A DNA stretch of 52,653 nucleotides, from UHGV virus genome UHGV-0083175. One strand, written 5' to 3'. Below the pieces are notes generated by a model. That model was given only the letters and a program-made list of their open reading frames with translations, did not search any database and was not told the origin of the DNA. Positions 4,680 through 20,508 of this stretch are shown here, piece by piece. The DNA is from a virus. The translations under genes and the position numbers were made by a program. How positions within the stretch are numbered: position 1 is the stretch's first letter; the number at the start of each line of letters is the position of its first letter.

Positions 4680-4969
4680 CCTGGCCTGAAGCGTTCATAA
4701 CGGTAGGAATTGCAATGGCGGTGGCGCTGGTGGTGTATTCGATTTGCCGCTGGGGATAAAAACGGTTTGCGGGGAAAGAAGAGTTAAGTAGAATTGCTGC
4801 GGGTGCTTGAGGCTGTCTGCCTCGGGCATGCCGACGTAAGGCAGACAGAGAAAAGCCCCAGTTAACATTATGCGTCTTGCAGGACGCTTAACATTAATCT
4901 GAGGCCATATCTATGACTTGCACACTTAGATTAGCCTCTTATGCGCCGAAAGGCAAGGAGCAGCAGGCT

Positions 4970-5125
4970 ATGAAGCAGCAAAAGGCGATGCTAATCGCCC
5001 TGATCGTCATCTGTATTACCGTCGTTGTAACGGTACTGGTAACGAGGAAAGACCTCTGCGAGGTACGAATCCGAACCGGCCAGACGGAGGTCGCTGTCTT
5101 CACAGCTTACGAATCTGAGAAGTAA
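4970..5125 (+). CDS. hok: Hok/Gef-family membrane toxin (type I toxin)
   Basis: MKQQKAMLIALIVICITVVVTVLVTRKDLCEVRIRTGQTEVAVFTAYESEK is near-identical to HokD/RelF; internal Met of ORF 4913..5125. Confidence 0.85.
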   Translation: MKQQKAMLIALIVICITVVVTVLVTRKDLCEVRIRTGQTEVAVFTAYESEK

Positions 5126-5565: not shown

Positions 5566-6615
5566 GTGCGGGTATTACTTCGACCTGTTCTGGTGCCGGA
5601 ACTTGGCCTGGTGGTCCTTAAGCCTGGACGCGAATCACGGCCTGTTTTTCATTGCGGCAGGGTGCTGGTGGAGCCGGAACCGAAAAACATGCGCGGTCTG
5701 CCGTCCGGAGTCGTTCCTGCCGTTCGCCAGCCGCTGGCAGAGGATAAAACATTACTGCCATTTTTCAGCGATGAGCGGGTTATTCGTGCAGCAGGTGGTG
5801 CAGGTGCACTGTCTGACTGGTTATTACGTCACGTGAAATCCTGCCAGTGGCCACACGGCGATTATCATCACAGCGAAACCGTCATTCACCGTTATGGTAC
5901 CGGCGCGATGGTGTTGTGCTGGCACTGTGACAACCAGCTGCGCGACCAGACATCAGAATCACTCGATCAACTTGCTCAGCAGAATCTGGTTGCCTGGATG
6001 ATTGACGTCATCCGTCACGCAATAAGCGGTACGCAGGAGAGGGAGTTATCGCTGGCCGAATTATCCTGGTGGGCGGCCTGCAATCAGGTGGTGGATGCAC
6101 TACCTGAGGCAGTAGCGCGTTGTTCGCTGGGATTACCAGCGGAAAAAATCCGCTCCGTATACCGTGAGAGTGACATCGTACCGGGAGAACAGACAGCCAT
6201 CAGCATACTGAAGCAGCGCACAAAAAATATTGCGCTGCCACTTCACGTCCACCAGCAACAAAATCCACCACAGAAAAAAACGGTTGTCAGTATCGCCGTT
6301 GATCCGGAGTCTCCTGAATCGTTCATGAGGCGGCCTAAACGTCGCCGTTGGGTTAATGAGAAATACACGCGCTGGGTAAAGACACAGCCGTGTGCGTGTT
6401 GTGGTAAGCCAGCTGACGATCCGCATCACCTGATTGGTCATGGTCAGGGGGGAATGGGAACAAAGGCCCACGATATTTTCACGCTACCGTTGTGCCGGGA
6501 GCACCACAACGAACTTCATGCAGACCCGCAGGAGTTTGAGAAAAAGTACGGCTCTCAGATTGAGTTAATTTTTCGTTTTCTTGATCACGCCTTTGCGACT
6601 GGCGTGCTCGGGTAA
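5566..6615 (+). CDS. DUF968-family protein (YdfU-like, Cys/His-rich C-terminal domain)
   Basis: 349 aa, GTG start after GGAGGT; C-terminus CACCGKP...DPHHLIGHGQ...CREHHNELH; position upstream of rusA matches Qin-type nin regions. Confidence 0.65.
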   Translation: MRVLLRPVLVPELGLVVLKPGRESRPVFHCGRVLVEPEPKNMRGLPSGVVPAVRQPLAEDKTLLPFFSDERVIRAAGGAGALSDWLLRHVKSCQWPHGDYHHSETVIHRYGTGAMVLCWHCDNQLRDQTSESLDQLAQQNLVAWMIDVIRHAISGTQERELSLAELSWWAACNQVVDALPEAVARCSLGLPAEKIRSVYRESDIVPGEQTAISILKQRTKNIALPLHVHQQQNPPQKKTVVSIAVDPESPESFMRRPKRRRWVNEKYTRWVKTQPCACCGKPADDPHHLIGHGQGGMGTKAHDIFTLPLCREHHNELHADPQEFEKKYGSQIELIFRFLDHAFATGVLG

Positions 6616-6627
6616 AAGAGGTGACTG

Positions 6628-6990
6628 ATGCTCATAGATTTGGTTTTACCTTACCCGCCGACGGTGAACACTTACTGGCGACGCCGTGGCAGCACATATT
6701 TTGTATCAAAAGCCGGGGAGCGTTATCGCCGGGCAGTGGCGCTTATTGTTCGCCAGCAGCGGCTGAAATTAAGACTGTCCGGACGGCTGGCAATAAAAAT
6801 TATTGCAGAGCCACCGGATAAGCGTCGTCGTGACCTGGACAATTTTCTGAAAGCGCCGCTGGATGCGCTGACGCATGCAGGAATGTTAATGGACGATGAG
6901 CAGTTTGATGAAATCAATATTGTACGTGGCAAGCCAGTATCTGGTGGACGGCTGGAGATAAGAATTACAGAGGTGGGTGTGCATGAATAA
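6628..6990 (+). CDS. rusA: Holliday junction resolvase RusA
   Basis: 120 aa; RRRDLDNFLKAPLDALTHAGMLMDDEQ and GGRLEIRITE align with E. coli RusA. Confidence 0.9.
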   Translation: MLIDLVLPYPPTVNTYWRRRGSTYFVSKAGERYRRAVALIVRQQRLKLRLSGRLAIKIIAEPPDKRRRDLDNFLKAPLDALTHAGMLMDDEQFDEINIVRGKPVSGGRLEIRITEVGVHE

Positions 6991-7648
6991 CCAGTATTTA
7001 CAGTTTGTTCGTGAGCAACTCATGATTGCCACTGCGGATCTTAGTGGGTCGACAAAAGGCCAGCTGGAAGTCTGGCAGGAAAATGCCCTGTTCGATACAG
7101 GGCGTTACAGACGCAAAAAAATTCGTTACCGCGATGAGGTAACCGGAAAAATGATCACGCGGGATAATCCCCCGATCCCGGGTAAACAATCACTGGCGAA
7201 AGGCTCATCAATTGCCCTGGTCAGTCCGGTTGAGTTTTCGACATCATCATGGCGACGCGCCGTTCTGTCTCTTGAAGAACATCATAAAGCCTGGCTGCTG
7301 TGGTGTTACAGCGGTAGCATTTGCTGGGAGCATCAGATCGCGATAACGCAGTGGGCGTGGACTGAATTTAATGCTCAATCCGGTACCAGAAAAATTGCAG
7401 GAAAAACTCTGGTGCGCCTGAAGACGTTGATCTGGTTGGCGGCGCAGGCGGTAAAAGCTGAGCTTTTTGGTGGGGAAGGTTACGAATACCAGGAACTGGC
7501 GTTACTGGTGGGAGTAACAACCAAAAACTGGTCCAAGACATTTACTGGTCACTGGGTTGCAATGAAACACATTTTTCATCGGCTGGATAGTGAAGCTTTA
7601 TTGTTGGTGGAGGGAACTCGTTCAAAACAAAAGGCGGCATTTTCATAG
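6983..7648 (+). CDS. late-gene antiterminator Q-like protein
   Basis: ATG 6983 overlaps the rusA stop (ATGAATAA); ~220 aa; immediately upstream of a strong promoter and terminator, as expected for Q / PR' / tR'. Confidence 0.55.
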   Translation: MNNQYLQFVREQLMIATADLSGSTKGQLEVWQENALFDTGRYRRKKIRYRDEVTGKMITRDNPPIPGKQSLAKGSSIALVSPVEFSTSSWRRAVLSLEEHHKAWLLWCYSGSICWEHQIAITQWAWTEFNAQSGTRKIAGKTLVRLKTLIWLAAQAVKAELFGGEGYEYQELALLVGVTTKNWSKTFTGHWVAMKHIFHRLDSEALLLVEGTRSKQKAAFS

Positions 7649-7901: not shown

Positions 7902-8615
7902 ATGGATGACAGTGCTCTGCTCAGAAACTCTTCACTTTTTGTCGCTTATATGGGCTGTCTCGGATGGGGGAGCGCTTATTTCTATGGATGGGGTACTTCA
8001 TTTTACTATGGCTTTCCATGGTGGGTTGTCGGGGCTGGTGTCGATGATGTAGCACGAAGTTTGTTTTATGCTGTGACAGTTATTGTTATATTCCTTATTG
8101 GATGGGGAGTTGGTATTGTTTTCTTTTTGGGCATAAAACAAAAGCGCAATATACAAAATTTGAGTTTTATCCGGCTTTTTCTCGCGATATTGCTGCTTTT
8201 TATTCCACCTGTTCTGGAGTTTTCTGTAATTCATCAGCATGTTGAGCCAGATGTACTGATTTTCTGCGTTCTTGCTGCCTTTGCAATCACGCTTTTTGTC
8301 AGGTCTGGAAGAAGACTTGTTTCAGTCAAATGTTTTTCGGAAATGTCTGTTATTCGCCATCACCGAATTGAGTTCATGATGGCTGGGTTTATGATTTATT
8401 TCTGGGCATTCTCTCTTATTGCCGGTTGGTACAAACCACAGTTTAAGAGGGAATATCAGGCGGTCCACTATGAGAATGTATGGTATTACATTATTGCGCG
8501 CTATGATGATCGTCTGGTGTTATCGAAATCATACAGGAGTGGGGGTAAGAAATTCGTTATATTTAATAGCGGAAATATTAATGATTTTGAAATTAATACT
8601 GTCAGAGTACGTTAA
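7902..8615 (+). CDS. AT-rich multi-pass membrane protein (moron)
   Basis: 237 aa with several hydrophobic Trp/Phe/Gly-rich segments; markedly AT-rich relative to flanking phage genes. Confidence 0.5.
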   Translation: MDDSALLRNSSLFVAYMGCLGWGSAYFYGWGTSFYYGFPWWVVGAGVDDVARSLFYAVTVIVIFLIGWGVGIVFFLGIKQKRNIQNLSFIRLFLAILLLFIPPVLEFSVIHQHVEPDVLIFCVLAAFAITLFVRSGRRLVSVKCFSEMSVIRHHRIEFMMAGFMIYFWAFSLIAGWYKPQFKREYQAVHYENVWYYIIARYDDRLVLSKSYRSGGKKFVIFNSGNINDFEINTVRVR

Positions 8616-8788
8616 AATTTCCTGAGTAATAAAGATTTTACTGCCCGGCATTGAGCGGTTTTTTTATGCCAGAAAAATGGTGCAGTACATAAAATGTGCA
8701 GGTGGTTATTAATACCGGTCTTTCAGCTTGCTGGCTTTTTTGACAAGAGTTACTGGTGTGTCACGTTAACCGGAAAAGGGAAAAAGAC

Positions 8789-8986
8789 ATGCTGAAACAG
8801 CAGGATATGACAGAAACCGCCAGAGTGGTGTTTAATGAATTAAGCGTCACCGAACCGGCGACAGTCGGGGAGATTGCACAGAATACGTACCTTTCACGCG
8901 AACGCTGTCAGTTAATACTGACCCAGCTTGTTATGGCGGGTCTGGCAGATTATCAGTTCGGTTGTTACAGACGCCTTCAGTCCTGA
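8789..8986 (+). CDS. small winged-helix regulator (FaeA/PapI-like)
   Basis: ORF 8756..8986, start taken at internal MLKQQ; TVGEIAQNTYLSRERCQLILTQLVMAGL resembles FaeA-like HTH proteins. Confidence 0.35.
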   Translation: MLKQQDMTETARVVFNELSVTEPATVGEIAQNTYLSRERCQLILTQLVMAGLADYQFGCYRRLQS

Positions 8987-8997
8987 AGGCTTTTTTA
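8973..8997 (+). terminator. rho-independent terminator
   Basis: GCCTTCAG-tcc-TGAAGGC stem followed by TTTTTT. Confidence 0.55.
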
Positions 8998-9136
8998 TTT
9001 GTGGTAAATGGGCGGCTGGTGGGTGTTAGGGGCACTCACCAGCCATCTGCTCATGCGTTGGGGTCACAAGCAAACCTCAGGCCCACTGCTTTGCGCAAAA
9101 GCAGAATGAGCCTATCAGAGACAGGCTTAATGATCC

Positions 9137-10195
9137 ATGCTTAATACTGTAAAAATATCCAGTTGTGAGTTAATCAACGCCGACTGCCTGGAATTTATCC
9201 GGTCGTTACCCGAAAATTCTGTTGACCTGATAGTCACGGACCCGCCGTACTTTAAAGTGAAGCCTGAGGGCTGGGATAACCAGTGGAAGGGCGACGATGA
9301 TTACCTGAAGTGGCTGGACCAGTGTCTGGCGCAGTTCTGGCGGGTGCTGAAACCTGCCGGAAGTCTTTACCTGTTCTGTGGCCATCGCCTGGCATCTGAT
9401 ATCGAAATCATGATGCGTGAACGCTTCAGTGTACTGAACCATATTATCTGGGCAAAGCCGTCCGGACGCTGGAACGGGTGCAACAAGGAAAGCCTGAGGG
9501 CGTATTTCCCCGCCACAGAGCGCATTCTGTTCGCGGAACATTATCAGGGGCCGTATCGTCCGAAAGATGCCGGGTATGAGGCGAAGGGCAGGGCACTGAA
9601 ACAGCATGTGATGGCTCCGCTGATTGCTTACTTTCGTGATGCGCGTGCTGCCCTGGGGATAACGGCAAAACAGATAGTGGATGCCACAGGAAAGAAAAAC
9701 ATGGTGTCGCACTGGTTCAGTGCCAGTCAGTGGCAGCTACCGAACGAAAGCGATTATCTGAAATTACAGGCGCTGTTTGCCCGGGTGGCAGAAGAGAAGC
9801 ATCAGCGCGGTGAACTGGAAAAGCCCCACCACCAGCTGCTGGAGACGTATACTTCACTGAACCGGCAGTATGCGGAACTGCAGAGTGAATATAAGCATCT
9901 GCGGCGGTATTTTGGCGTGACGGCGCAGGTGCCGTACACGGATGTGTGGACGCATAAACCGGTGCAGTACTATCCCGGGAAACATCCGTGCGAAAAACCG
10001 GCAGAAATGCTGCAGCAGATAATCAGCGCGAGCAGTCGTCCGGGGGACCTGGTTGCAGATTTTTTCATGGGGTCGGGTTCGACAGTCAAAGCCGCGATGG
10101 CGCTGGGGCGTCGTGCAACAGGCGTTGAGCTGGAGACTGAACGTTTTGAGCAGACGGTCAGGGAAGTTCAGGATTTAGCCAGTCAGAACGGATGA
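9137..10195 (+). CDS. DNA methyltransferase (N6-adenine/N4-cytosine class, DPPY motif)
   Basis: 352 aa; DLIVTDPPYF catalytic motif near the N-terminus and a C-terminal AdoMet-binding FFMGSGST segment. Confidence 0.8.
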   Translation: MLNTVKISSCELINADCLEFIRSLPENSVDLIVTDPPYFKVKPEGWDNQWKGDDDYLKWLDQCLAQFWRVLKPAGSLYLFCGHRLASDIEIMMRERFSVLNHIIWAKPSGRWNGCNKESLRAYFPATERILFAEHYQGPYRPKDAGYEAKGRALKQHVMAPLIAYFRDARAALGITAKQIVDATGKKNMVSHWFSASQWQLPNESDYLKLQALFARVAEEKHQRGELEKPHHQLLETYTSLNRQYAELQSEYKHLRRYFGVTAQVPYTDVWTHKPVQYYPGKHPCEKPAEMLQQIISASSRPGDLVADFFMGSGSTVKAAMALGRRATGVELETERFEQTVREVQDLASQNG

Positions 10196-10235
10196 TATTG
10201 CAGGATTAGTTACGTACCGTTATTATCCTGCGCCC

Positions 10236-10310
10236 GGCCCTTTAGCTCAGTGGTGAGAGCGAGCGACTCATAATCGCCAGGTCGCTGGTTCAAATCCAGC
10301 AAGGCCACCA
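10236..10310 (+). tRNA. tRNA with CAU anticodon (ileX-like tRNA-Ile2/Met), acceptor stem one nt short
   Basis: Hand-folded cloverleaf: D-arm GCTC/GAGC, anticodon loop CTCATAA, T-arm GCTGG-TTCAAAT-CCAGC, 3' ACCA; 3' acceptor strand AAGGCC versus expected AAGGGCC. Confidence 0.55.
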
Positions 10311-10319
10311 TATCACATA

Positions 10320-10396
10320 CCGCCATTAGCTCATCGGGATAGAGCGCCAGCCTTCGAAGCTGGCTGCGCGGGGTTCGAGTCCTCGATGGCGGTCCA
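10320..10396 (+). tRNA. tRNA-Arg (anticodon UCG)
   Basis: Complete 77-nt cloverleaf: acceptor CCGCCAT/ATGGCGG, anticodon loop CTTCGAA, T-arm CGGGG-TTCGAGT-CCTCG, 3' TCCA. Confidence 0.8.
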
Positions 10397-10674
10397 TTAT
10401 CTGCATTATGCGTTGTTGGTTCTGATGAGTGAATCATTGTCTTTTGAGCAACAGGCTATCATATAAGATAGCCTCAGACTTCCTTGTTTATTCTCGCCGG
10501 ATGCTTCGTAGATATTTGCAGGCATCTGTATGCAGGGGTATTATTGCGGCATATATCATCCGGAAAAATAAAAACTACATGCTGATCCGGAGATGATAGT
10601 TACAAGTCCTCCCGGATCCCGCATATTTACTATATTTTATAGATAATTGTTCTTGTTAATATGGAGATGGATAA

Positions 10675-11103
10675 ATGTATTGCCGTGCTGTACCGGTTCT
10701 TGTTTTGATATTAGCCAGTCTGACAACTGGCTGCACAAAAGATGTATCGACAAATAATTATGATGCTTCTCTGTATCACTCAGATAAATTAATAAAGTCG
10801 CAAAATTTGAGCTCATCGGAACGTACCCCTGATGCCAGTGAAGAAATCCGGCTGTATGCCATTCAGGTCAGGAAAGCCATAGAAGAACAGTTAAAGGATG
10901 CGAGTAAGTATTCAGGAAAAGAGTGTTCACTGAGAATGTATATGGCCCCGAATGGTCTTCTGCTACAGGTTAAAAGAGAAAGCGGTGATCCCGATTTATG
11001 TCGTGAAGCGATGAATGCAGTAAAGAATGCTGATATACCATCACCACCGTCTTCAGGAGTATATAAAGCATTTAGAAATGGCGTGCTGGATTTTAAACTC
11101 TGA
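10675..11103 (+). CDS. lipoprotein with TolA C-terminal domain (TolA-III) homology
   Basis: Signal peptide with lipobox LTTGC; C-terminal ~90 aa (GKECSLRMYMAPNGLLLQVKRESGDPDLCREAM...VYKAFRNGVLDFKL) align with E. coli TolA domain III. Confidence 0.7.
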   Translation: MYCRAVPVLVLILASLTTGCTKDVSTNNYDASLYHSDKLIKSQNLSSSERTPDASEEIRLYAIQVRKAIEEQLKDASKYSGKECSLRMYMAPNGLLLQVKRESGDPDLCREAMNAVKNADIPSPPSSGVYKAFRNGVLDFKL

Positions 11104-11168
11104 CAGGGGGAGAAGATTTTCTCCTGTCCTGATGATTTTGGGGCGCTGGAAAGATATTGTGCTGTGAA

Positions 11169-11560
11169 GTGTTAAATCCCTCACAATTCAGTAAGTTGAC
11201 AGTTGCCTGTCAGACTGAGCATTTGTTAAAAAAATTTCGCATGGTGAATCCCCCTGTGCGGAGGGGCGACTGGTGAACGGTATGATCTCTTTGATGATCG
11301 TAAGCGAGAATACGCGGGTTTGGTGTCACCGGGCTGAACTCACCGGGAGGCACCCGGCACCATGCTCATGGTGATACAGAAATGCGGCTTCAGCCCCTCT
11401 CCGGAGGGGCTTTCTTATGGACAAAAAAAGCCCGCGCTGGGAGACGCGGGCGGCAAGGAATAAACAATAAAACGTGAAGTAATACTTCAACTGGCGAATA
11501 ATACCCGACAGTAATCACTCTGCGCAATAGCGCGGCCTTTTTCGAATTGCGGGCTGTAGT
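11169..11560 (+). repeat. structured repeat unit A (with 3' extension shared with unit D)
   Basis: Shares with three downstream units the blocks GTGTTAAATYCCTCACAATTCA, TTGTTAAAAAA, GCATGGTGAATCCCCCTGTGCGGAGGGG, CACCGGGAGGCACCCGGCA and a terminator hairpin. Confidence 0.8.
11239..11416 (+). ncRNA. candidate small RNA, repeat copy A
   Basis: Runs from conserved GCATGGTG to terminator GCCCCTCTCCGGAGGGGC + T-run; 5' CATGGTG can pair with 3' CACCATG; two internal hairpins. Confidence 0.35.
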
Positions 11561-11575
11561 CTCCCTTCTGCCGGG

Positions 11576-11735
11576 TGGCCTGGTTGCAGATTTCTTCATG
11601 GGGTAGGGTTCGGCAGTTAAAGCAGCGATGGCGCTGGGGCGTCGTGCAACTGGCGTTGAGCTGGATACCGGGCGTTTTGAACAGACTGCGCAGGAAATCA
11701 GGGATGTATTTAGCGGGAGCGGTTTGCAGAAGTAA
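11576..11735 (+). pseudogene. duplicated 3' fragment of the DNA methyltransferase gene
   Basis: ~150 nt nearly identical to 10041..10195; translates as GLVADFFMG*GSAVKAAMALGRRATGVELDTGRFEQ with an in-frame stop. Confidence 0.6.
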
Positions 11736-11798: not shown

Positions 11799-12524
11799 AT
11801 GGATGTTGCCTGCTCTGTGGTCCTGATTCGCTATCCGATAGATATTTTTCTTGAAAAAGAAAAAGTTTCACTCGATGCCGGAAGTGTTATGCTTGTTGCC
11901 AGAAATATAAGAGGGCTTTTCTGTGCTTATGCCGACAGAGTGAAAATGGCAGATATAAGTAACAGCGTCGTCAATCAGTATCTGGAAAGGGAGTGTGAAC
12001 TGACGGAGTATACACCGACAAAAATGCCTCTTTATTTGATGTCTGATATTTACAATACGGAACTGGCGGAGGCTTTAATAACCCAGCATAGTGAATCCAG
12101 TGATACTTTGAAGGATTTCTCTGTTATAACCGCATTTTCATGTATCTCCTTATTTGCAACAGACAGGCGTCTGCCATTATTTTTGTCCGGTGCTGTAAAT
12201 AATATCAGCTGTAAAGTAAGGGCTATAATTCAGACCGACATATCGGCAGGCTGGATGCTAGGTGTGATTGCATTACAATTGCATATGAGCGAAAGCTTGT
12301 TGAAGCGAAAACTTAAGGATGAAGGTTATAGCTTTAGTCGGTTGTTGCTGGAGGAGCGAATGCGTGTTGCTGTTAATCTTGTATGTTTCCAGCGAGAGTG
12401 TGGACAAGCGATAGCGGAAAAATGTGGTTACTCAAGTAAGTCCTATTTCATTTCTGTATTTCACCAGTATTATGGTGCACCACCTGAGAGCTATGCATAT
12501 TTGCAGAAAGCAGACGTTATCTGA
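11799..12524 (+). CDS. AraC-family transcriptional regulator (moron)
   Basis: 241 aa; C-terminal double HTH (GWMLGVIALQLHMSESLLKRKLKDEGYSFSRLL...IAEKCGYSSKSYFISVFHQYYGAPPESY); AT-rich. Confidence 0.6.
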   Translation: MDVACSVVLIRYPIDIFLEKEKVSLDAGSVMLVARNIRGLFCAYADRVKMADISNSVVNQYLERECELTEYTPTKMPLYLMSDIYNTELAEALITQHSESSDTLKDFSVITAFSCISLFATDRRLPLFLSGAVNNISCKVRAIIQTDISAGWMLGVIALQLHMSESLLKRKLKDEGYSFSRLLLEERMRVAVNLVCFQRECGQAIAEKCGYSSKSYFISVFHQYYGAPPESYAYLQKADVI

Positions 12525-12613: not shown

Positions 12614-12892
12614 GTGAATATTGATGAGAAAATCAGATGTAGCCAACTGTTACAGCGTATTGAAGCCGTCAATGTGGAACGAACAAAGGTCTTCAGTCGT
12701 CTGACAGTTTTATTTTGTACCCCTGATCGACGTTCAGGTCAGGAGATGGTTCTTCTGGATGTAGATGCACTTCGGAACGTCTGTGAGGAGTTCACCGCGG
12801 CTAATTCGGAGTTACTGAGTCTTGTTCAGGAGTACAACAGAATTGCAGGTAGTAACGGTTTTGATGAAATCAAAATTATATCCCGTGGATAA
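12614..12892 (+). CDS. hypothetical protein
   Basis: 92-aa ORF with GTG start downstream of the AraC-like gene; no recognised motif. Confidence 0.3.
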   Translation: MNIDEKIRCSQLLQRIEAVNVERTKVFSRLTVLFCTPDRRSGQEMVLLDVDALRNVCEEFTAANSELLSLVQEYNRIAGSNGFDEIKIISRG

Positions 12893-13210
12893 AACATATC
12901 CTGTATATTTATGTTGTTACATACAGGCGCTTTTAGTATCTGCCGCACGGCAGTTGTACTTTAGAATAAGATGCTTTTGTGACTGGTGGTGTTGTATCTG
13001 GGGTTAGCCAGGAGGCAGGTTCAGAGAGTCCGGTGGTAATTATGTGTATGCAGTGGTTGTTGCTGTACCGTGGGCAAGTTCTGGAACTGGCTTCGTCCAT
13101 TGTAGATGATTGTTAGCTGGATATCAGTTACCTCATGGAAATGTTAAATGACTCACAATTCGGTTGATGGACTATTGTCTGATCGATGGAAGTCTTGTAA
13201 AAACGAGCCA

Positions 13211-13377
13211 GCATAGTGAATCCCCCTGTGCGGAGGGGCGTCTGACATGGTCTCCATAGCGATGGTCACAATACGCAGATTCAGTAGTCAGGCTGAATCT
13301 ACCGGGAGGCACCCGGCACTATGCTGCTTATGGTGTATACATAGCGATCGGCCCCTCTCCGGAGGGGCTTTTTTTGT
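13211..13377 (+). ncRNA. candidate small RNA, repeat copy B
   Basis: GCATAGTG...CACTATGC long-range pairing (compensatory versus copy A), conserved hairpins, terminator GCCCCTCTCCGGAGGGGC + TTTTTTT. Confidence 0.35.
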
Positions 13378-13469
13378 GCGGGAAAAGGCTGTGTTGTTAA
13401 GTGTTAAATTCCTCACAGTTCAGATGGTTGATGCTTGCCTGTCTGAGGGGGAGTTGTTAAAAAAGTTCT

Positions 13470-13637
13470 GCATGGTGAATCCCCCTGAGCGGAGGGGCAT
13501 ATCAGCGCAGGTGTTTCTACTCTATCCTTTCTGTGCGGGTTCAGGTGCTGATACTGAACTCACCGGGAGGCACCCGGCATCATGCATATGGTTAACAGAC
13601 ACGTAGCGAAGCCCCTCTCCGGAGGGGCTTTTTTATG
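13470..13637 (+). ncRNA. candidate small RNA, repeat copy C
   Basis: GCATGGTG...CATCATGC pairing with one G-U wobble, conserved hairpins, terminator + T-run. Confidence 0.35.
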
Positions 13638-13729
13638 CAGGGAAAAGGCTGTGTTGTGAAATGTTAAATTCCTCACAATTCATGAGGTTGATGATTGTCT
13701 GATTGATGAGGAGTTTGTTAAAAAAAACG

Positions 13730-13884
13730 GCATGGTGAATCCCCCTGTGCGGAGGGGTGATATCGTATCATTTCATGTGTGGCCGACTGATATCACGGAC
13801 ATTTGTTCACCGGGAGGCACCCGGCACCTGCAGTATACAGAGATTAGGCATACATCCAGGCTCCTCATCGCAGGAGCCTTTTTA
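13730..13884 (+). ncRNA. candidate small RNA, repeat copy D
   Basis: Conserved 5' blocks; terminator replaced by compensatory variant GCTCCTCATCGCAGGAGC + TTTTT. Confidence 0.3.
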
Positions 13885-14115
13885 CATGTAAAAAAAACCG
13901 CTCCCGGGAAGAGCGGTTGGCAAGGAAGCAAGGAATAAATAACAAAACGTGAAGTAATTTATTCAGCACCCTAATAATACCTTAGAGTAATCACCTTGCG
14001 CAACTGTAAGGGCGTATTTCTTTTTTGCGGGCTGTTTTTCTGTGTGACTTTTGTGTTTCCGGAGGTCAGTCCGTGCCTTCTCTGACTCAGAACATTATCC
14101 CGGCCGGGAGGATTC

Positions 14116-16053
14116 ATGGCATTTAAACACTACGATGTGGTCAGGGCGGCATCGCCGTCAGACCTTGCTGAACGACTGACACAAAAACTGAAGGAGGGCT
14201 GGCAGCCATTTGGCAGTCCGGTGGTCATCACGCCTTATACCCTGATGCAGGCCATTGCGGCGGAAGGTGATGTCACCACACCAGTGGCGGTGACCGGTAA
14301 TGAGGGTAAGGCGGTGGCTGTCAGTGCCACCAGCGACCCGGAGTATTACTTTGTTGTGGTTCTGGCAGGGCAGTCAAATGGCATGTCGTATGGTGAAGGT
14401 CTTCCGCTGCCGGAGACATATGACCGTCCGGACCCGCGTATTAAGCAGCTGGCGCGCCGCAGTACGGTGACACCGGGCGGTGTCGCCTGTAAATATAACG
14501 ACATCATTCCGGCGGACCATTGTCTGCATGATGTGCAGGACATGAGCCGTCTTAACCATCCGAAAGCGGACCTGTCAAAGGGGCAGTACGGAACCGTGGG
14601 GCAGGGGCTGCATATCGCCAAAAAACTGCTGCCGTTTATACCGGCGAATGCGGGTATTCTGCTGGTTCCGTGCTGTCGTGGTGGTTCAGCGTTCACCACC
14701 GGAGCTGATGGCACATACAGTGACGCGAGTGGTGCCTCGGAGAATTCAGCGCGCTGGGGTGTGGACAAGCCGCTGTATAAGGACCTTATCGGTCGAACAA
14801 AAGCAGCACTGAAGAAGAACCCGAAAAATGTGCTGTTTGCCGTGGTGTGGATGCAGGGGGAATTTGATTTTGACGGCACGCCCGGAAATCACGCAGCACA
14901 GTTTGGTGCGCTGGTTGATAAATTCCGTGCAGACCTGACGGATATGGCAGGTCAGTGCGTTGGTGGCTCTGCTGGCGGTGTTCCCTGGATATGCGGGGAC
15001 ACGACGTATTTCTGGAAGCAGAAGAACGAATCCACCTGCCAGATGGTGTACGGCAGCTATAAAAACAAAACGGAAAAGAATATCCATTTCGTACCGTTCA
15101 TGACGGATGAGAACGGGGTGAATGTGCCGACGAACAAACCGGAAGAAGACCCGGACATTCCGGGTATCGGGTATTACGGTTCGAAATGGCGTGACAGCTC
15201 AGCCACCTGGACGTCACAGGACAGGGCGAGCCATTTCAGCACCTGGGCACGCCGGGGGATTATTTCCGACCGTCTGGCAACGGCGATTCTGATTCATGCA
15301 GGACGAACCACAGTAAAAGTCGATGCTCCATCTTCTGAAACTGGCGCACCGACGCCATCACCGTCAGAAAATGAAGCGGTAAGCACAACAACACTGCTGT
15401 CTTACCGTGCCAGTGAGTCTGAAGGGAGGCTGACCGAACAGGGCTGGAGTGCTGGCGGAGGTAAAGCGGAAATTGTTGCTGATGAAGGTGCAACAGGTGG
15501 TACCGCGATGAAGCTGAGCAAGGAGACAGGAGTGGGGTCATGGTATCTGGAGCATGATGCCGGTACTGGCGCTGAACTGCTGAAAAATGGCGGTTTAATC
15601 AGCTGCCGCTTTAAGGCATCCGGTGAACTGGTAGCAAATCAGTATGTCATTGCACTTTACTGGCCGGTTTCCTCTCTGCCGCAGGGTGTCACCCTGACAG
15701 GGGATGCAGGGAATAATCTGCTGGCAGCGTTTTACATCCAGACAGATGCAAAAGACCTGAATGTGATGTACCACAATGCGAAGGTGGCGACAAATAACCT
15801 GAAACTGGGAAGCTTTGGCGCATTTGATAACGAATGGCATACGCTGGCTTTCCGCTTTGCCGGGAATAACAGCCTTCAGGTGACGCCGGTTATTGATGGT
15901 CAGGATGGCACACCGTTCACGCTGACGCAGTCACCGGTCAGTGCATTTTCGGCGGATAAGTTGCATGTGACAGACATTACCAAAAGTGCGACTTACCCGG
16001 TACTGATAGACAGCATTGCGGTGGTAGTGAATAACGCGGACGCCGCGGCATGA
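14116..16053 (+). CDS. nanS-p: NanS-p-like sialate O-acetylesterase (SGNH/SASA hydrolase)
   Basis: 645 aa; VVVLAGQSNGMSYGEG active-site region; size and position (upstream of the lysis cassette) match nanS-p of Stx phages. Confidence 0.75.
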   Translation: MAFKHYDVVRAASPSDLAERLTQKLKEGWQPFGSPVVITPYTLMQAIAAEGDVTTPVAVTGNEGKAVAVSATSDPEYYFVVVLAGQSNGMSYGEGLPLPETYDRPDPRIKQLARRSTVTPGGVACKYNDIIPADHCLHDVQDMSRLNHPKADLSKGQYGTVGQGLHIAKKLLPFIPANAGILLVPCCRGGSAFTTGADGTYSDASGASENSARWGVDKPLYKDLIGRTKAALKKNPKNVLFAVVWMQGEFDFDGTPGNHAAQFGALVDKFRADLTDMAGQCVGGSAGGVPWICGDTTYFWKQKNESTCQMVYGSYKNKTEKNIHFVPFMTDENGVNVPTNKPEEDPDIPGIGYYGSKWRDSSATWTSQDRASHFSTWARRGIISDRLATAILIHAGRTTVKVDAPSSETGAPTPSPSENEAVSTTTLLSYRASESEGRLTEQGWSAGGGKAEIVADEGATGGTAMKLSKETGVGSWYLEHDAGTGAELLKNGGLISCRFKASGELVANQYVIALYWPVSSLPQGVTLTGDAGNNLLAAFYIQTDAKDLNVMYHNAKVATNNLKLGSFGAFDNEWHTLAFRFAGNNSLQVTPVIDGQDGTPFTLTQSPVSAFSADKLHVTDITKSATYPVLIDSIAVVVNNADAAA

Positions 16054-18252: not shown

Positions 18253-18786
18253 ATGAACACCAAAATAAAATACGGCCTGTCGGCTGCCGTTCTGGCGCTG
18301 ATTGCCGCAGGGGCGCCTGCGCCTGATATTCTCGACCAGTTTCTGGATGAAAAAGAAGGTAACCACACCACGGCATACCGTGATGGTGCGGGTATCTGGA
18401 CCATTTGTCGTGGTGCCACCAGGGTGGATGGCAAACCTGTCGTCCCGGGCATGAAGTTGTCGAAGAAAAAATGCGACCAGGTTAACGCCATTGAGCGTGA
18501 TAAGGCGCTGGCATGGGTGGAGAAAAACATCCGGGTGCCACTGACCGAACCCCAGAAAGCGGGGATCGCGTCATTCTGCCCGTATAACATTGGCCCCGGT
18601 AAGTGTTTCCCGTCGACGTTTTATAAACGAATTAATGCAGGCGATCGCAGGGGAGCGTGTGAAGCGATTCGCTGGTGGATTAAGGACGGTGGCAGGGACT
18701 GCCGTATCCGCTCAAATAATTGTTATGGTCAGGTATCCCGTCGTGACCAGGAGAGCGCGCTGGCGTGCTGGGGTATCGACAGATAA
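18253..18786 (+). CDS. SAR endolysin (phage lysozyme with signal-anchor-release domain)
   Basis: N-terminal Gly/Ala-rich SAR helix GLSAAVLALIAAGA; E...D...T catalytic motif region EGNHTTAYRDGAGIWTICRG. Confidence 0.85.
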   Translation: MNTKIKYGLSAAVLALIAAGAPAPDILDQFLDEKEGNHTTAYRDGAGIWTICRGATRVDGKPVVPGMKLSKKKCDQVNAIERDKALAWVEKNIRVPLTEPQKAGIASFCPYNIGPGKCFPSTFYKRINAGDRRGACEAIRWWIKDGGRDCRIRSNNCYGQVSRRDQESALACWGIDR

Positions 18787-20175: not shown

Positions 20176-20508
20176 ATGAAAATGAAAAGAAATCTTCCGT
20201 TAATTATTTTGTTGTCTTCTCTGGTTATGGGCTGTACGCAACATAAAACAGATATGCCCCGACAGTTGGTTAAGGCATTACCACAATATCCGGCCTATGC
20301 AGCGGCAAATTATATAAAGGGACGGGTTGATGTGAAGTTTGATATTGGTGCTGATGGTACTGTCACCCGAATTGAGTTTATCCGTTCAGAGCCGCACCAT
20401 CTGTTTGATGAGCAGGTTGTAAAGGCGATGGCAAAATGGCGATTTGAGAAGGACAGGCCGCGTAAAGGCGTGAAGAAAACGTTTATCTTTAGTCCTTCTG
20501 CACCCTGA
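20176..20508 (+). CDS. lipoprotein with TonB C-terminal domain homology
   Basis: Signal peptide with lipobox LVMGC; PQYPAYAAANYIKGRVDVKFDIGADGTVTRIEF...VVKAMAKWRFE parallels the TonB C-terminal domain. Confidence 0.65.
   Translation: MKMKRNLPLIILLSSLVMGCTQHKTDMPRQLVKALPQYPAYAAANYIKGRVDVKFDIGADGTVTRIEFIRSEPHHLFDEQVVKAMAKWRFEKDRPRKGVKKTFIFSPSAP

What the first reader, a model, noticed from the sequence alone, without database searches (positions are those of the whole stretch)
10675..11103. Lipoprotein with a TolA domain-III homolog occupying the position where Stx phages carry stx
The ORF has a lipoprotein signal peptide (lipobox LTTGC) followed by a C-terminal ~90 aa closely matching the E. 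coli TolA C-terminal domain (e.g. GKECSLRMYMAPNGLLLQVKRESGDPDLCREAM...VYKAFRNGVLDFKL versus the TolA tail ending ...LDFKP). It lies after the Q-dependent late promoter, methylase and tRNAs, the slot that holds stx in Stx phages, and upstream of nanS-p. Periplasmic TolA-III is known to titrate group A colicins and filamentous-phage g3p, so a prophage-encoded decoy could give the lysogen colicin tolerance or superinfection exclusion.
Basis: partly seen in the sequence, partly recalled or inferred. Interest (0 to 1): 0.75.

Follow-up and report, generated by a model that had tools for sequence, protein, structure and literature searches.

The report
Prophage lipoprotein copy of TolA's tip
A lambdoid prophage carries, exactly where Shiga-toxin phages carry stx2, a small exported lipoprotein that is a free-standing copy of the tip domain of the host protein TolA, most likely a decoy that intercepts colicins and filamentous phages; the gene family is very common on E. 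coli phages and plasmids, is mis-named "TolA" in databases, and I found no study that tests its function.

Summary
ORF 10675-11103 (+) encodes 142 aa in three parts. There is a lipoprotein signal peptide (R4, hydrophobic core, L-T-T-G-C20, Thr at +2). A linker of about 33 aa is predicted disordered. A TolA domain-III fold follows (Pfam PF06519 E=5e-22; 45/89 ungapped identities to E. coli TolA 333-421; AF2 model matches TolA-III crystal structures, TM 0.87, rmsd 1.8 Å).

The slot claim holds to the base. Window 10418-11180 replaces argO+stx2A+stx2B of an otherwise 90-97% identical Stx2a-phage late region.

The protein is not TolA. It lacks the membrane anchor and the long helical domain, and it is not in the tol-pal operon.

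It belongs to a large family of exported TolA-III-only proteins, mostly lipoproteins. Type 1 is in 895 of 5426 complete E. coli genomes. A divergent type 2 lies in tandem with it in mEp460-like prophages and also occurs on IncK, pO157-like and other plasmids. A Klebsiella bacteriocin plasmid pairs a TolA-III lipoprotein with an exported TonB-C protein. This prophage also encodes a TonB-C lipoprotein.

Best reading (0.45): an outer-membrane-tethered decoy of the TolA hub that blocks Tol-dependent bacteriocin and filamentous-phage import. Main rival (0.25): a late-expressed Tol-Pal saboteur that helps lysis. I found no functional study.

The parts
6977..7648 (+). Antiterminator Q, which defines the start of the late operon upstream of the cassette
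   Evidence: Pfam Phage_antiter_Q E=1.3e-90
9137..10195 (+). N6/N4 DNA methylase, shared with Stx2 phages
   Evidence: Pfam PF01555 E=6e-44. Window 8738-10417 is 97% identical to Stx2a phage 1447.
10235..10309 (+). tRNA with CAT anticodon (ileZ-type; RefSeq calls it tRNA-Ile)
   Evidence: ARAGORN, Rfam tRNA, RefSeq annotation of an identical region
10320..10396 (+). tRNA-Arg (TCG), argN-type; left border of the cassette
   Evidence: ARAGORN. Homology to the Stx2a phage ends at 10417, 8 nt into where argO would be.
10418..11180 (+). 763-bp cassette that occupies the place of argO+stx2A+stx2B (1446 bp) of Stx2a phage 1447. It is AT-rich, about 39-42% GC against 51.5% for the whole window.
   Evidence: blastn breakpoints: window 10417 = L007 3181 and window 11181 = L007 4628, which is 46 nt after the stx2B stop. 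Composition.
10663..10666 (+). Shine-Dalgarno GGAG, 8 nt before the ATG
   Evidence: read from the sequence
10675..10734 (+). Lipoprotein signal peptide and lipobox (aa 1-20: MYCRAVPVLVLILASLTTG|C), with Cys20 as the predicted acylated N-terminus
   Evidence: Sequence. The lipobox Cys is invariant in 45 diverse family members. 47 of 71 short representatives pass the strict lipobox rule and none has Asp at +2.
10735..10833 (+). Linker (aa 21-53), predicted disordered and less constrained than the domain
   Evidence: AF2 pLDDT below 50 for residues 1-51. dN/dS 0.36-0.87 against 0.23-0.36 for the domain.
10834..11103 (+). TolA domain-III homolog (aa 54-142) plus stop codon. It keeps the disulfide pair C84/C109 (= TolA C363/C388), the beta2 strand LLQVKR (= LLDIKP) and the beta3 strand GVLDFK (= APLDFK).
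   Evidence: Interface residues taken.
11102..11128 (+). 12-bp hairpin starting at the stop codon, followed by a U-rich tract; a possible weak terminator
   Evidence: RNA fold, -26 kcal/mol for the 91-nt stretch, z only -1.35. The terminator scan did not flag it.
11210..11422 (+). STnc100-family sRNA element with its terminator (11392-11411); right flank of the cassette, shared with Stx2 phages
   Evidence: Rfam RF02076, 172 bits; terminator scan; homology to the region downstream of stx2B
11799..12524 (+). AraC-family regulator, a neighbouring cargo gene that is absent from the Stx2a phage compared here
   Evidence: Pfam HTH_18/HTH_AraC; no match in L007
14116..16053 (+). NanS-p type sialate O-acetylesterase
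   Evidence: Pfam DUF1737+SASA+DUF6645; 90% identical to the Stx2a-phage gene
16731..16946 (+). Holin, the start of the lysis cassette downstream
   Evidence: RefSeq 'class II holin' in an equivalent prophage; marker tblastn
18253..18786 (+). Endolysin (lysozyme)
   Evidence: ORF list; RefSeq 'lysozyme' in the equivalent prophage
20176..20508 (+). Second envelope-hub mimic: a lipoprotein (MKMKRNLPLIILLSSLVMG|C) carrying a TonB C-terminal domain
   Evidence: Pfam TonB_C E=5e-15; translation. Present in 15 phage records including phage 21 and Stx1a phages, and in 415 of 5426 E. coli genomes.

Best explanation
The ORF encodes an exported lipoprotein predicted to be anchored in the inner leaflet of the outer membrane. 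It consists of a flexible tether of about 33 residues and a free-standing copy of TolA domain III.

It has no transmembrane domain I and no helical domain II, so it cannot be coupled to the TolQ-TolR motor. It does keep the fold, the disulfide and both edge strands. Through those strands TolA-III binds three kinds of ligand: the TolB N-terminus, the N1 domain of filamentous-phage g3p and colicin N on beta3, and colicin A on beta2.

The proposed mechanism is competitive decoy action. The protein sits where bacteriocin translocation domains and phage g3p emerge into the periplasm. It captures them in a dead-end complex, so Tol-dependent (group A) bacteriocins and TolA-dependent filamentous phages are not imported. 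The cell carrying the prophage becomes tolerant.

Shown here: the sequence, the fold, the lipobox, the cassette position, purifying selection, and the spread on mobile elements. Inferred: lipidation and outer-membrane sorting, ligand binding, expression in lysogens, and the phenotype.
For: - **Fold.** TolA-III is supported by sequence and by model: PF06519 E=4.6e-22; PDB TolA chains E about 1e-25, ungapped; AF2 residues 52-141 at pLDDT about 70-90 with the alpha-(short alpha)-beta-beta-alpha-alpha-beta topology; Foldseek best hits are all TolA-III, with 2X9A_B at TM 0.87 and rmsd 1.8 Å.
- **Binding surfaces.** The beta3 residues L417, D418, F419 and K420 are identical (LDFK) and invariant in the type-1 alleles. 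At the colicin A site, 5 of 8 contact residues are kept, including K379 and K396 and the backbone-mediated strand.
- **Export and anchoring.** The lipobox Cys is invariant across 45 diverse short homologs. None of 47 strict-lipobox representatives has the Asp(+2) inner-membrane retention signal.
- **Selection.** dN/dS is 0.23-0.36 on the domain.
- **Cargo on non-lytic elements.** A lysis role makes little sense on plasmids, yet 1331 plasmid records carry such an ORF. Examples are a ColRNAI bacteriocin plasmid where it is followed by an exported TonB-C protein, IncK/I-complex conjugative plasmids just after the relaxase, and a pO157-like plasmid. Filamentous phage IF1, known to me as specific for I pili, uses TolA-III as co-receptor (PDB 2X9A title).
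- **A matching partner.** The same prophage carries a TonB-C lipoprotein, the analogous mimic for the other import pathway.
- **Moron-like features.** GC is 41% against 51.5%. In the commonest allele the two-gene TolA-III unit has a 10/12 sigma-70-like promoter 30 nt upstream and a strong terminator before the holin.
- **Affinities.** Colicin N binds TolA-III at about 1 µM and colicin A at 1.3 µM, whereas TolB binds at about 40 µM. A decoy could therefore titrate invaders preferentially.
Against: - No experiment on this protein or any relative was found in 10 full-text searches.
- The gene lies in the Q-dependent late operon, directly upstream of the lysis genes, in all 80 viral loci examined. 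Its main expression may therefore come only after induction, when colicin tolerance is of little use.
- The promoter-like site for this allele is only a 9/12 match, and the region has no excess of such sites over shuffles.
- TolA K368, the partner of ColA Tyr58 that is essential for complex stability, is replaced (Y in this allele; H or N in others).
- Some distant short homologs sit at ordinary chromosomal sites with no mobile-element context. The family may therefore have a housekeeping role.
- Exported TolA-III makes E. coli leaky, which would be a cost in the bile-rich gut.
- There is no PADLOC defence-family hit.
Confidence: 0.45

Rival explanations
1. Late-gene saboteur of Tol-Pal. The protein is made in bulk from the Q-dependent late promoter. 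The tethered TolA-III binds the TolB N-terminus and competes with real TolA. Pal is then no longer released, the outer membrane loosens or vesiculates, and this helps spanin-mediated lysis and release of virions (and, in related phages, of toxin).
For: - The gene is always co-oriented with the holin and endolysin and lies 0.75-6 kb upstream of them, in the late operon.
- It occupies the slot of stx2, which by established knowledge is a late-transcribed gene.
- The TolB-binding strand beta3 (LDFK) is the best conserved surface.
- Exported TolA-III releases periplasmic proteins from E. coli.
- Point mutations that block TolA-TolB binding give a full tol phenotype.
Against: - The same architecture is abundant on plasmids that have no lysis programme and at chromosomal sites.
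- Most lambdoid phages lyse without it.
- The TolA-TolB affinity is weak, about 40 µM, so very high levels would be needed.
- In the commonest allele the gene pair is bracketed by its own promoter-like site and terminator.
Confidence: 0.25
2. A physiological modulator of the envelope rather than a defence or lysis factor. An outer-membrane-tethered TolA-III would tune TolB-Pal dynamics, vesicle production or porin and TolC function, for the benefit of the lysogen (for example stress tolerance, colonisation or OMV-borne virulence factor export).
For: - Short TolA-III lipoproteins also occur at non-mobile chromosomal loci in other Enterobacterales.
- The window allele is found chiefly in STEC strains from cattle and humans.
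Against: - No specific evidence supports this reading.
- It does not explain the pairing with TonB-C proteins.
- It does not explain the strong bias to phages and plasmids in E. coli.
Confidence: 0.15
3. A decaying fragment of a captured host tolA gene that has no function and hitch-hikes in the cassette.
For: Several database alleles are frameshifted or truncated (P0018, P0021, P0028, P0037, P0038). The host-like domain could have been picked up by illegitimate recombination.
Against: - The ORF is intact in 885 genomes at 80% coverage or more.
- dN/dS is well below 1.
- A signal peptide, lipobox and linker that real TolA lacks have been added and are conserved.
- GC is 41% and identity to E. 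coli TolA only 51%, so it is not a recent capture.
Confidence: 0.05
4. It is a genuine TolA ('cell envelope integrity protein TolA'), as RefSeq names it.
For: TIGR02794 scores 72.8 bits, above its cutoff of 59.45. RefSeq annotates every copy as tolA.
Against: - The match covers only profile positions 266-361 of 362.
- The stricter equivalog NF007065 scores 100 bits against a cutoff of 213.
- There is no membrane anchor or helical domain II, the protein is 142 aa against 421 aa, and the gene is in a prophage, not in the tol-pal operon.
Confidence: 0.01

Closest known systems
E. coli TolA, domain III (residues about 325-421; Pfam PF06519; PDB 1S62, 3QDP, 1TOL, 2X9A)
   Same: Same fold and 45/89 ungapped identities. 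The disulfide pair is the same. The beta3 LDFK strand (TolB, g3p and ColN site) and most of the beta2 strand (ColA site) are kept.
   Different: It has no TolQR-interacting transmembrane domain I and no 250-residue helical domain II. Instead it has a lipoprotein signal and a short disordered tether. It is encoded in a prophage late region at 41% GC. It cannot transduce force.
Engineered periplasmic TolA-III (Levengood-Freyermuth, Click & Webster 1993; Wan & Baneyx 1998)
   Same: An exported, free TolA-III domain, uncoupled from the motor. It makes cells leaky. From my recollection of the 1993 paper, which is not held in the library, it also makes them tolerant to colicins and Ff phage.
   Different: That construct is laboratory-made and soluble in the periplasm. 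This protein is natural, lipid-anchored, 51% identical, and under natural expression control.
Entry-blocking lipoproteins of mobile elements: T5 Llp, phi80/N15 Cor, F-plasmid TraT (own knowledge)
   Same: Small lipoproteins encoded by phages or plasmids that act in the envelope to stop incoming phages, colicins or DNA.
   Different: Those bind or mask an outer-membrane receptor such as FhuA or OmpA, and they are not homologs of a host protein. This one would mimic the periplasmic co-receptor and bind the invader itself.
Resident filamentous-phage g3p (pIII) causing superinfection immunity and colicin tolerance
   Same: It targets the same TolA-III/g3p-N1 interaction. Periplasmic pIII-N1 gives resistance to colicin A and a 4-log drop in sensitivity to phage uptake by sequestering TolA.
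   Different: It is the mirror image. There the ligand titrates the receptor and disturbs Tol-Pal. Here a spare receptor domain would titrate the ligand.
stx2AB cassette of Stx2 phages (for example Stx2a_1447, 933W-like)
   Same: Same insertion point between the tRNA genes and the STnc100 element upstream of nanS-p, with flanks 90-97% identical.
   Different: The cargo is unrelated. No locus or phage record examined carries both: 0 of 80 viral loci, and only one of 50,697 phage records has a TolA-like ORF, which is not an Stx phage.
PHROG 5772 and the RefSeq 'cell envelope integrity protein TolA' short proteins (WP_000271631.1 and relatives)
   Same: This ORF is a member: E=5e-57 against PHROG 5772, and 99-100% identical to RefSeq proteins.
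   Different: The PHROG is labelled unknown function, and the RefSeq name is a domain-level mis-transfer.

Membership tests
TolA (Tol-Pal system protein, equivalogs TIGR02794 / NF007065) | N-terminal transmembrane helix (domain I) that couples to TolQ-TolR | tested here: not met
   The N-terminus is a cleavable lipoprotein signal peptide ending in LTTG|C. NCBIfam matches cover only the last 90-96 or so profile positions.
TolA (Tol-Pal system protein, equivalogs TIGR02794 / NF007065) | Long Ala/Lys/Glu-rich helical domain II spanning the periplasm | tested here: not met
   Only a 33-aa linker, predicted disordered. Total length is 142 aa against 421 aa.
TolA (Tol-Pal system protein, equivalogs TIGR02794 / NF007065) | C-terminal globular domain III fold with a conserved disulfide | tested here: met
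   PF06519 E=4.6e-22. Foldseek TM 0.87 to 2X9A_B. C84/C109 align with C363/C388.
TolA (Tol-Pal system protein, equivalogs TIGR02794 / NF007065) | Encoded in the ybgC-tolQRA-tolB-pal-cpoB cluster | tested here: not met
   It lies between phage Q/tRNAs and nanS-p/lysis genes.
TolA (Tol-Pal system protein, equivalogs TIGR02794 / NF007065) | Score above the curated equivalog cutoff | tested here: inconclusive
   NF007065 scores 100.1 against a cutoff of 213 (fails). TIGR02794 scores 72.8 against 59.45 (passes, on the C-terminal quarter only).
Bacterial outer-membrane lipoprotein | Signal peptide with a positive n-region, a hydrophobic core and a lipobox [LVI][ASTVI][GAS]C | tested here: met
   R4, A5-L16, L-T-T-G-C20. 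The Cys is invariant in 45 homologs. The rule is met by 47 of 71 representatives.
Bacterial outer-membrane lipoprotein | No Asp at +2 (no Lol-avoidance signal), so the protein is sorted to the outer membrane | tested here: met
   Thr at +2. There are 0 Asp at +2 among 47 representatives. Whether sorting follows is inferred from the E. coli +2 rule (own knowledge).
Bacterial outer-membrane lipoprotein | Actual acylation and membrane localisation | not testable with these tools
   Needs globomycin or palmitate labelling and membrane fractionation.
Phage moron (independent cargo cassette) | Present or absent between conserved flanking genes in related phages | tested here: met
   The cassette 10418-11180 replaces argO+stx2AB between flanks that are 90-97% identical. 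The same cassette sits in a different phage backbone in strain N51.
Phage moron (independent cargo cassette) | Base composition deviates from the phage backbone | tested here: met
   ORF GC is 41.3% against 51.5% for the window.
Phage moron (independent cargo cassette) | Own promoter and terminator, allowing expression from the repressed prophage | tested here: inconclusive
   Window allele: a 9/12 promoter-like site at 10515-10544, with no excess over shuffles, and a hairpin after the stop with weak statistics. mEp460-type allele: a 10/12 site 30 nt upstream and a clear terminator.
Import decoy / superinfection-exclusion or colicin-tolerance factor | Binds colicin translocation domains or phage g3p-N1 | not testable with these tools
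   Only conservation of the binding strands could be checked. Complex prediction with outside sequences was not possible.
Import decoy / superinfection-exclusion or colicin-tolerance factor | Confers tolerance or resistance when expressed | not testable with these tools
   No experimental report was found.
Known anti-phage defence families (PADLOC-DB) | Match to a curated defence-protein model | tested here: not met
   No hit at E<=0.1 for the TolA-like, type-2 or TonB-like proteins.

The most novel reading that the evidence does not exclude
Exported stand-alone copies of the C-terminal hub domains of TolA and TonB, mostly lipoproteins, form a widespread and unrecognised class of mobile-element-borne import decoys. 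They would give broad-spectrum tolerance to Tol- and Ton-dependent bacteriocins and to phages that need these hubs. On conjugative plasmids they would offset the cost of displaying pili to TolA-dependent filamentous phages. In Stx-phage-like prophages the TolA-III decoy cassette and the stx cassette would be alternative cargos of the same recombination slot.
Probability: 0.35. Interest if true: 0.8.

Novelty: new variant of a known kind. Interest (0 to 1): 0.62.

Why it matters
If the decoy reading is right, roughly a sixth to a quarter of sequenced E. coli strains and well over a thousand plasmids carry a simple one-protein shield against group A bacteriocins and TolA-dependent phages. That shield has gone unnoticed because annotation pipelines call it TolA.

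It would add a new principle to envelope-level defence, namely mimicry of the periplasmic co-receptor rather than masking of the surface receptor. It would bear on attempts to use colicins, klebicins or filamentous phages as antimicrobials against STEC and Klebsiella. It would also show that the stx slot of lambdoid phages trades toxin cargo against competition or defence cargo.

If the lysis-helper reading is right instead, it would be a new accessory step in Gram-negative phage lysis that targets Tol-Pal.

Either way the test is cheap: one plasmid, standard colicin and phage spot assays, and SDS/deoxycholate sensitivity.

Tried and rejected
- **Genuine TolA.** Rejected on architecture.
- **EDL933 transcriptome claim.** PMC11125564 links EDL933_2012 of CP-933O, 32-fold up on ciprofloxacin, to TolA. 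Its supplement lists that gene only as 'tail fiber protein', so I do not use it as expression evidence.
- **Literature.** They found only passing mentions of 'TolA protein' in phage or plasmid gene lists and no functional work. The 1993 Levengood-Freyermuth paper is not held.
- **Wider genome scan.** The genome-contig scan was therefore not run. Contexts of distant homologs were sampled with the look-up of encoding contigs instead.
- **Tree.** A neighbour-joining tree of 141 TolA-III domains was uninformative about whether type 1 was captured from an Escherichia-like TolA. The only result is that its nearest neighbour outside its own cluster is E. coli TolA-III, at distance 0.44-0.48 against 0.49 or more for other short homologs.
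- **Promoter.** A relaxed scan of 10400-10680 gave nothing better than 9/12.
- **Type 2 in the window.** It is absent.
- **PADLOC.** No hits.
- **Complex modelling.** Modelling with colicins, g3p or TolB was not possible, because structure prediction accepts only window or hit sequences.
Full report

Yes. The + strand carries an ATG-initiated ORF at 10675-11103 (142 aa), with GGAG 8 nt upstream. Its first 20 residues, MYCRAVPVLVLILASLTTGC, have a basic residue, a 12-residue hydrophobic core and a lipobox (L-T-T-G-C), with Thr at +2.

Residues 52-140 match Pfam 'TolA C-terminal' (PF06519) at E=4.6e-22. Residues 54-141 align without a gap to E. coli TolA 333-420 in solved structures at E about 1e-25. 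That is 45 identities in 89 positions.

An AlphaFold2 model built on eight family members leaves residues 1-51 disordered. It folds 52-141 as helix, short helix, two strands, two helices and a strand. This is the topology described for TolA-III. Foldseek against the PDB returns only TolA-III structures at the top: 2X9A_B at TM 0.87 and rmsd 1.8 Å, then 3QDP, 3QDR and 1TOL.

**2. Context**

The window is a lambdoid prophage. The gene order is:

| Feature | Coordinates |
|---|---|
| DUF968 and RusA | 5566-6990 |
| Q antiterminator | 6977-7648 |
| 237-aa membrane ORF | 7902-8615 |
| N6/N4 methylase | 9137-10195 |
| tRNA(CAT) | 10235-10309 |
| tRNA-Arg | 10320-10396 |
| TolA-like ORF | 10675-11103 |
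| AraC-family gene | 11799-12524 |
| NanS-p type esterase | 14116-16053 |
| Holin, endolysin, spanin | further downstream |

A 9-kb query from Q to nanS-p hits 378 phage records, mostly Stx-converting phages, and stx2AB lies under the matched interval. I aligned the window to Stx2a phage 1447. Identity is 97% from 8738 to 10417, which covers the methylase, ileZ and argN. It resumes at 11181, which corresponds to 46 nt after the stx2B stop. So the 763 bp at 10418-11180 stand exactly where that phage has argO+stx2A+stx2B.

The cassette is AT-rich: the ORF is 41% GC against 51.5% for the window. Its right flank is an STnc100-family sRNA element (11210-11422). That element also follows stx2B in Stx phages and is repeated three more times before nanS-p.

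None of 80 IMG/VR loci carrying a relative of the ORF has stx within 6 kb. In all of them the gene is co-oriented with, and upstream of, the lysis genes. Only one of 50,697 phage records (mEp460_ev081) has a TolA-like ORF at all.

**3. What it is not**

RefSeq names every copy 'tolA: cell envelope integrity protein TolA'. This is a domain-level mis-transfer. The strict equivalog NF007065 scores 100 bits against a cutoff of 213. TIGR02794 passes only through its last 96 positions. There is no membrane anchor and no helical domain II, and the gene is not in the tol-pal operon. PHROGs files it as family 5772, 'unknown function'.

**4. The family**

Close relatives fall into three allele groups (A, which is the window type; B; and C). 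They are 65-99% identical. All have a lipobox, a conserved linker motif (VSTN...SSSERT) and the TolA-III domain.

- Type 1 is present in 895 of 5426 complete E. coli genomes. The window allele (99% or more) is mainly in STEC from cattle and humans. The C allele is in many commensal and avian strains.
- Pairwise dN/dS is 0.23-0.36 over the domain and 0.36-0.87 over the linker. The protein is therefore under purifying selection.
- In mEp460-type prophages the type-1 gene is followed in tandem by a second, very divergent TolA-III lipoprotein (type 2). Type 2 is 131 aa, 25% identical to type 1, and matches PF06519 at E=1e-14. The pair has a 10/12 sigma-70-like site 30 nt upstream and a clean terminator before the holin.
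- Type 2 is in 1269 of 5426 genomes, with 525 of its copies on plasmids. It sits after the nikA-nikB relaxase genes of IncK/I-complex conjugative plasmids and in the leading region of a pO157-like plasmid. The window lacks type 2.

An exhaustive phmmer search of 1.84 billion representatives gives 294 hits at E<=1e-3. Dozens of the 50%-identity clusters are 115-150-aa proteins. Of 71 full-length short representatives, 47 pass a strict lipobox rule. Several more have near-lipoboxes or plain signal peptides. None has Asp at +2. In an alignment of 45 diverse members the lipobox Cys and the two disulfide Cys are invariant.

tblastn finds such ORFs on 1331 plasmid records: Klebsiella 672, Escherichia 549. 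On a 10-kb ColRNAI Klebsiella plasmid the TolA-III lipoprotein gene overlaps the start of a gene for an exported TonB-C-domain protein. Both lie beside a colicin-like tRNase/immunity/lysis operon. One paper notes the presence of these genes without comment on function.

Distant members occur at the edge of a Serratia prophage and on a Rep3 plasmid. Others sit at ordinary chromosomal sites.

**5. A second mimic in the same prophage**

ORF 20176-20508, downstream of the lysis genes, encodes MKMKRNLPLIILLSSLVMG|C... followed by a TonB C-terminal domain (PF03544, E=5e-15). It occurs in phage 21, some Stx1a phages and 415 of 5426 E. coli genomes. This prophage therefore carries lipoprotein versions of the tip domains of both envelope energy transducers.

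**6. Mechanism**

TolA-III is the periplasmic hub that foreign proteins hijack:

- g3p-N1 of filamentous phages, colicin N and the TolB N-terminus add a strand to beta3 (A415-K420). D418 and K420 provide critical backbone hydrogen bonds.
- Colicin A adds a strand to beta2 (L375-P380), helped by K368, K379 and K396.

The alignment offset between TolA and the ORF is 279. In the ORF, beta3 is G-V-L-D-F-K, so L, D, F and K are identical, and they are invariant among type-1 alleles. Beta2 is L-L-Q-V-K-R. K379 and K396 are kept, while K368 is replaced by Tyr.

The protein cannot be energised because it lacks domains I and II. A lipid anchor without the Asp(+2) retention signal predicts outer-membrane localisation. 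That prediction rests on the E. coli sorting rule, which I cite from my own knowledge.

The simplest mechanism is a tethered decoy. It would bind incoming translocation domains or g3p at the inner face of the outer membrane and abort import. Invaders bind TolA-III at about 1 µM and TolB at about 40 µM, so moderate decoy levels could be selective.

The mirror experiment is known. Periplasmic g3p-N1 sequesters TolA and gives colicin A resistance and a 4-log drop in sensitivity to phage uptake. From my recollection of Levengood-Freyermuth et al. 1993, which is not held in the library, exported TolA-III makes cells colicin-tolerant. It also makes them leaky, a property exploited for protein release.

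The abundance of the architecture on plasmids favours a role that benefits the carrier cell rather than lysis. Three observations bear on this: the pairing with TonB-C proteins, the location on I-complex plasmids, and the moron-like promoter and terminator of the commonest allele. PDB entry 2X9A shows that filamentous phage IF1 uses TolA-III as co-receptor. That IF1 attaches to I pili is from my own knowledge.

**7. The main rival**

In every phage locus the gene lies in the Q-dependent late operon just upstream of the lysis genes, as stx2 does. For the window allele the promoter evidence is weak: a 9/12 match with no enrichment over shuffles. If the protein is made mainly after induction, a decoy against colicins is of little use.

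Mass production of a TolB-binding TolA-III would instead phenocopy a tol mutant. That would loosen the outer membrane and help release. The two models are not exclusive.

I assign 0.45 to the decoy, 0.25 to the lysis helper, 0.15 to a physiological envelope modulator, 0.05 to a non-functional remnant, and essentially nothing to 'genuine TolA'.

**8. Novelty and verdict**

The sequence family is catalogued (PHROG 5772 and the RefSeq 'TolA' proteins) and is common, so the ORF itself is not a discovery. PADLOC has no model for it.

As a mechanism it would be a new variant of the known theme of mobile-element lipoproteins that block entry (Llp, Cor, TraT). The difference is that it would work by mimicking the periplasmic co-receptor. 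Interest is moderate to high because the hypothesis is specific, broad in reach and cheap to test.

Noticed in passing
window 20176-20508 (+): A second small lipoprotein (lipobox LVMG|C) that carries a TonB C-terminal domain (PF03544, E=5e-15), downstream of the lysis genes. It is also in phage 21, Stx1a phages and 415 of 5426 E. coli genomes. It could be the Ton-pathway counterpart of the TolA-III lipoprotein.
   Followed up: partly
L002 (phage mEp460_ev081) 5933-6361 and 6512-6907; terminator 7033-7050: In the commonest prophage type the TolA-III lipoprotein is followed in tandem by a second, very divergent TolA-III lipoprotein (type 2, 131 aa, 25% identical). The pair is bracketed by a 10/12 promoter-like site and a strong terminator just before the holin. 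Type 2 is in 1269 of 5426 E. coli genomes, with 525 copies on plasmids.
   Followed up: partly
L004 (K. pneumoniae ColRNAI plasmid NZ_CP107381.1) 2883-3254 and 3251-3616: A TolA-III lipoprotein gene overlaps the start of a gene for an exported TonB-C-domain protein. Both lie next to a colicin-like tRNase bacteriocin, immunity and lysis operon on a 10-kb mobilizable plasmid.
   Followed up: partly
L098 and L099 (IncK/I-complex plasmids) 6947-7378; L005 (pO157-like pTA107) 5947-6378: The type-2 TolA-III lipoprotein gene sits immediately after the nikA-nikB relaxase genes on conjugative I-complex plasmids, and after psiB-psiA-hok in a pO157-like plasmid. PDB 2X9A shows that phage IF1 uses TolA-III as co-receptor; that IF1 attaches to I pili is from my own knowledge.
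   Followed up: no
window 11210-11422, 13182-13377, 13441-13640, 13702-13889 (+): Four copies of the Rfam STnc100 sRNA family (119-172 bits), each ending in a GC-rich terminator hairpin. The first forms the right border of the cassette and is shared with the region downstream of stx2B in Stx2 phages. In mEp460 a related sequence lies upstream of the TolA-like gene. These elements may be the recombination linkers for cargo exchange.
   Followed up: partly
window 11571-11686 and 11799-12524 (+): An 88%-identical 116-bp duplicate fragment of the methylase gene, followed by an AraC-family regulator gene (241 aa) and a 92-aa ORF (12614-12892). All are absent from the Stx2a phage compared here. This looks like a second cargo insertion between the cassette and nanS-p.
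   Followed up: no
window 7902-8615 (+): A 237-aa ORF with several hydrophobic segments and no Pfam match, lying between Q and the methylase. It is conserved at 100% in four related viral loci.
   Followed up: no
window 4801-4975 (+): Rfam sok antitoxin RNA (113 bits), indicating a hok/sok-type toxin-antitoxin locus in the early region of the prophage.
   Followed up: no
database relatives P0018, P0021, P0022, P0025, P0028, P0037, P0038: A number of type-1 alleles in public data are frameshifted or truncated in the last third of the TolA-III domain. The gene is therefore being lost, or mis-assembled, in some lineages.
   Followed up: no
RefSeq annotation of all copies (for example WP_000271631.1, WP_054626782.1): PGAP names these 142-aa prophage lipoproteins 'tolA: cell envelope integrity protein TolA', apparently because TIGR02794 passes its cutoff on the C-terminal domain alone. 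This is a systematic mis-annotation that affects thousands of records.
   Followed up: yes
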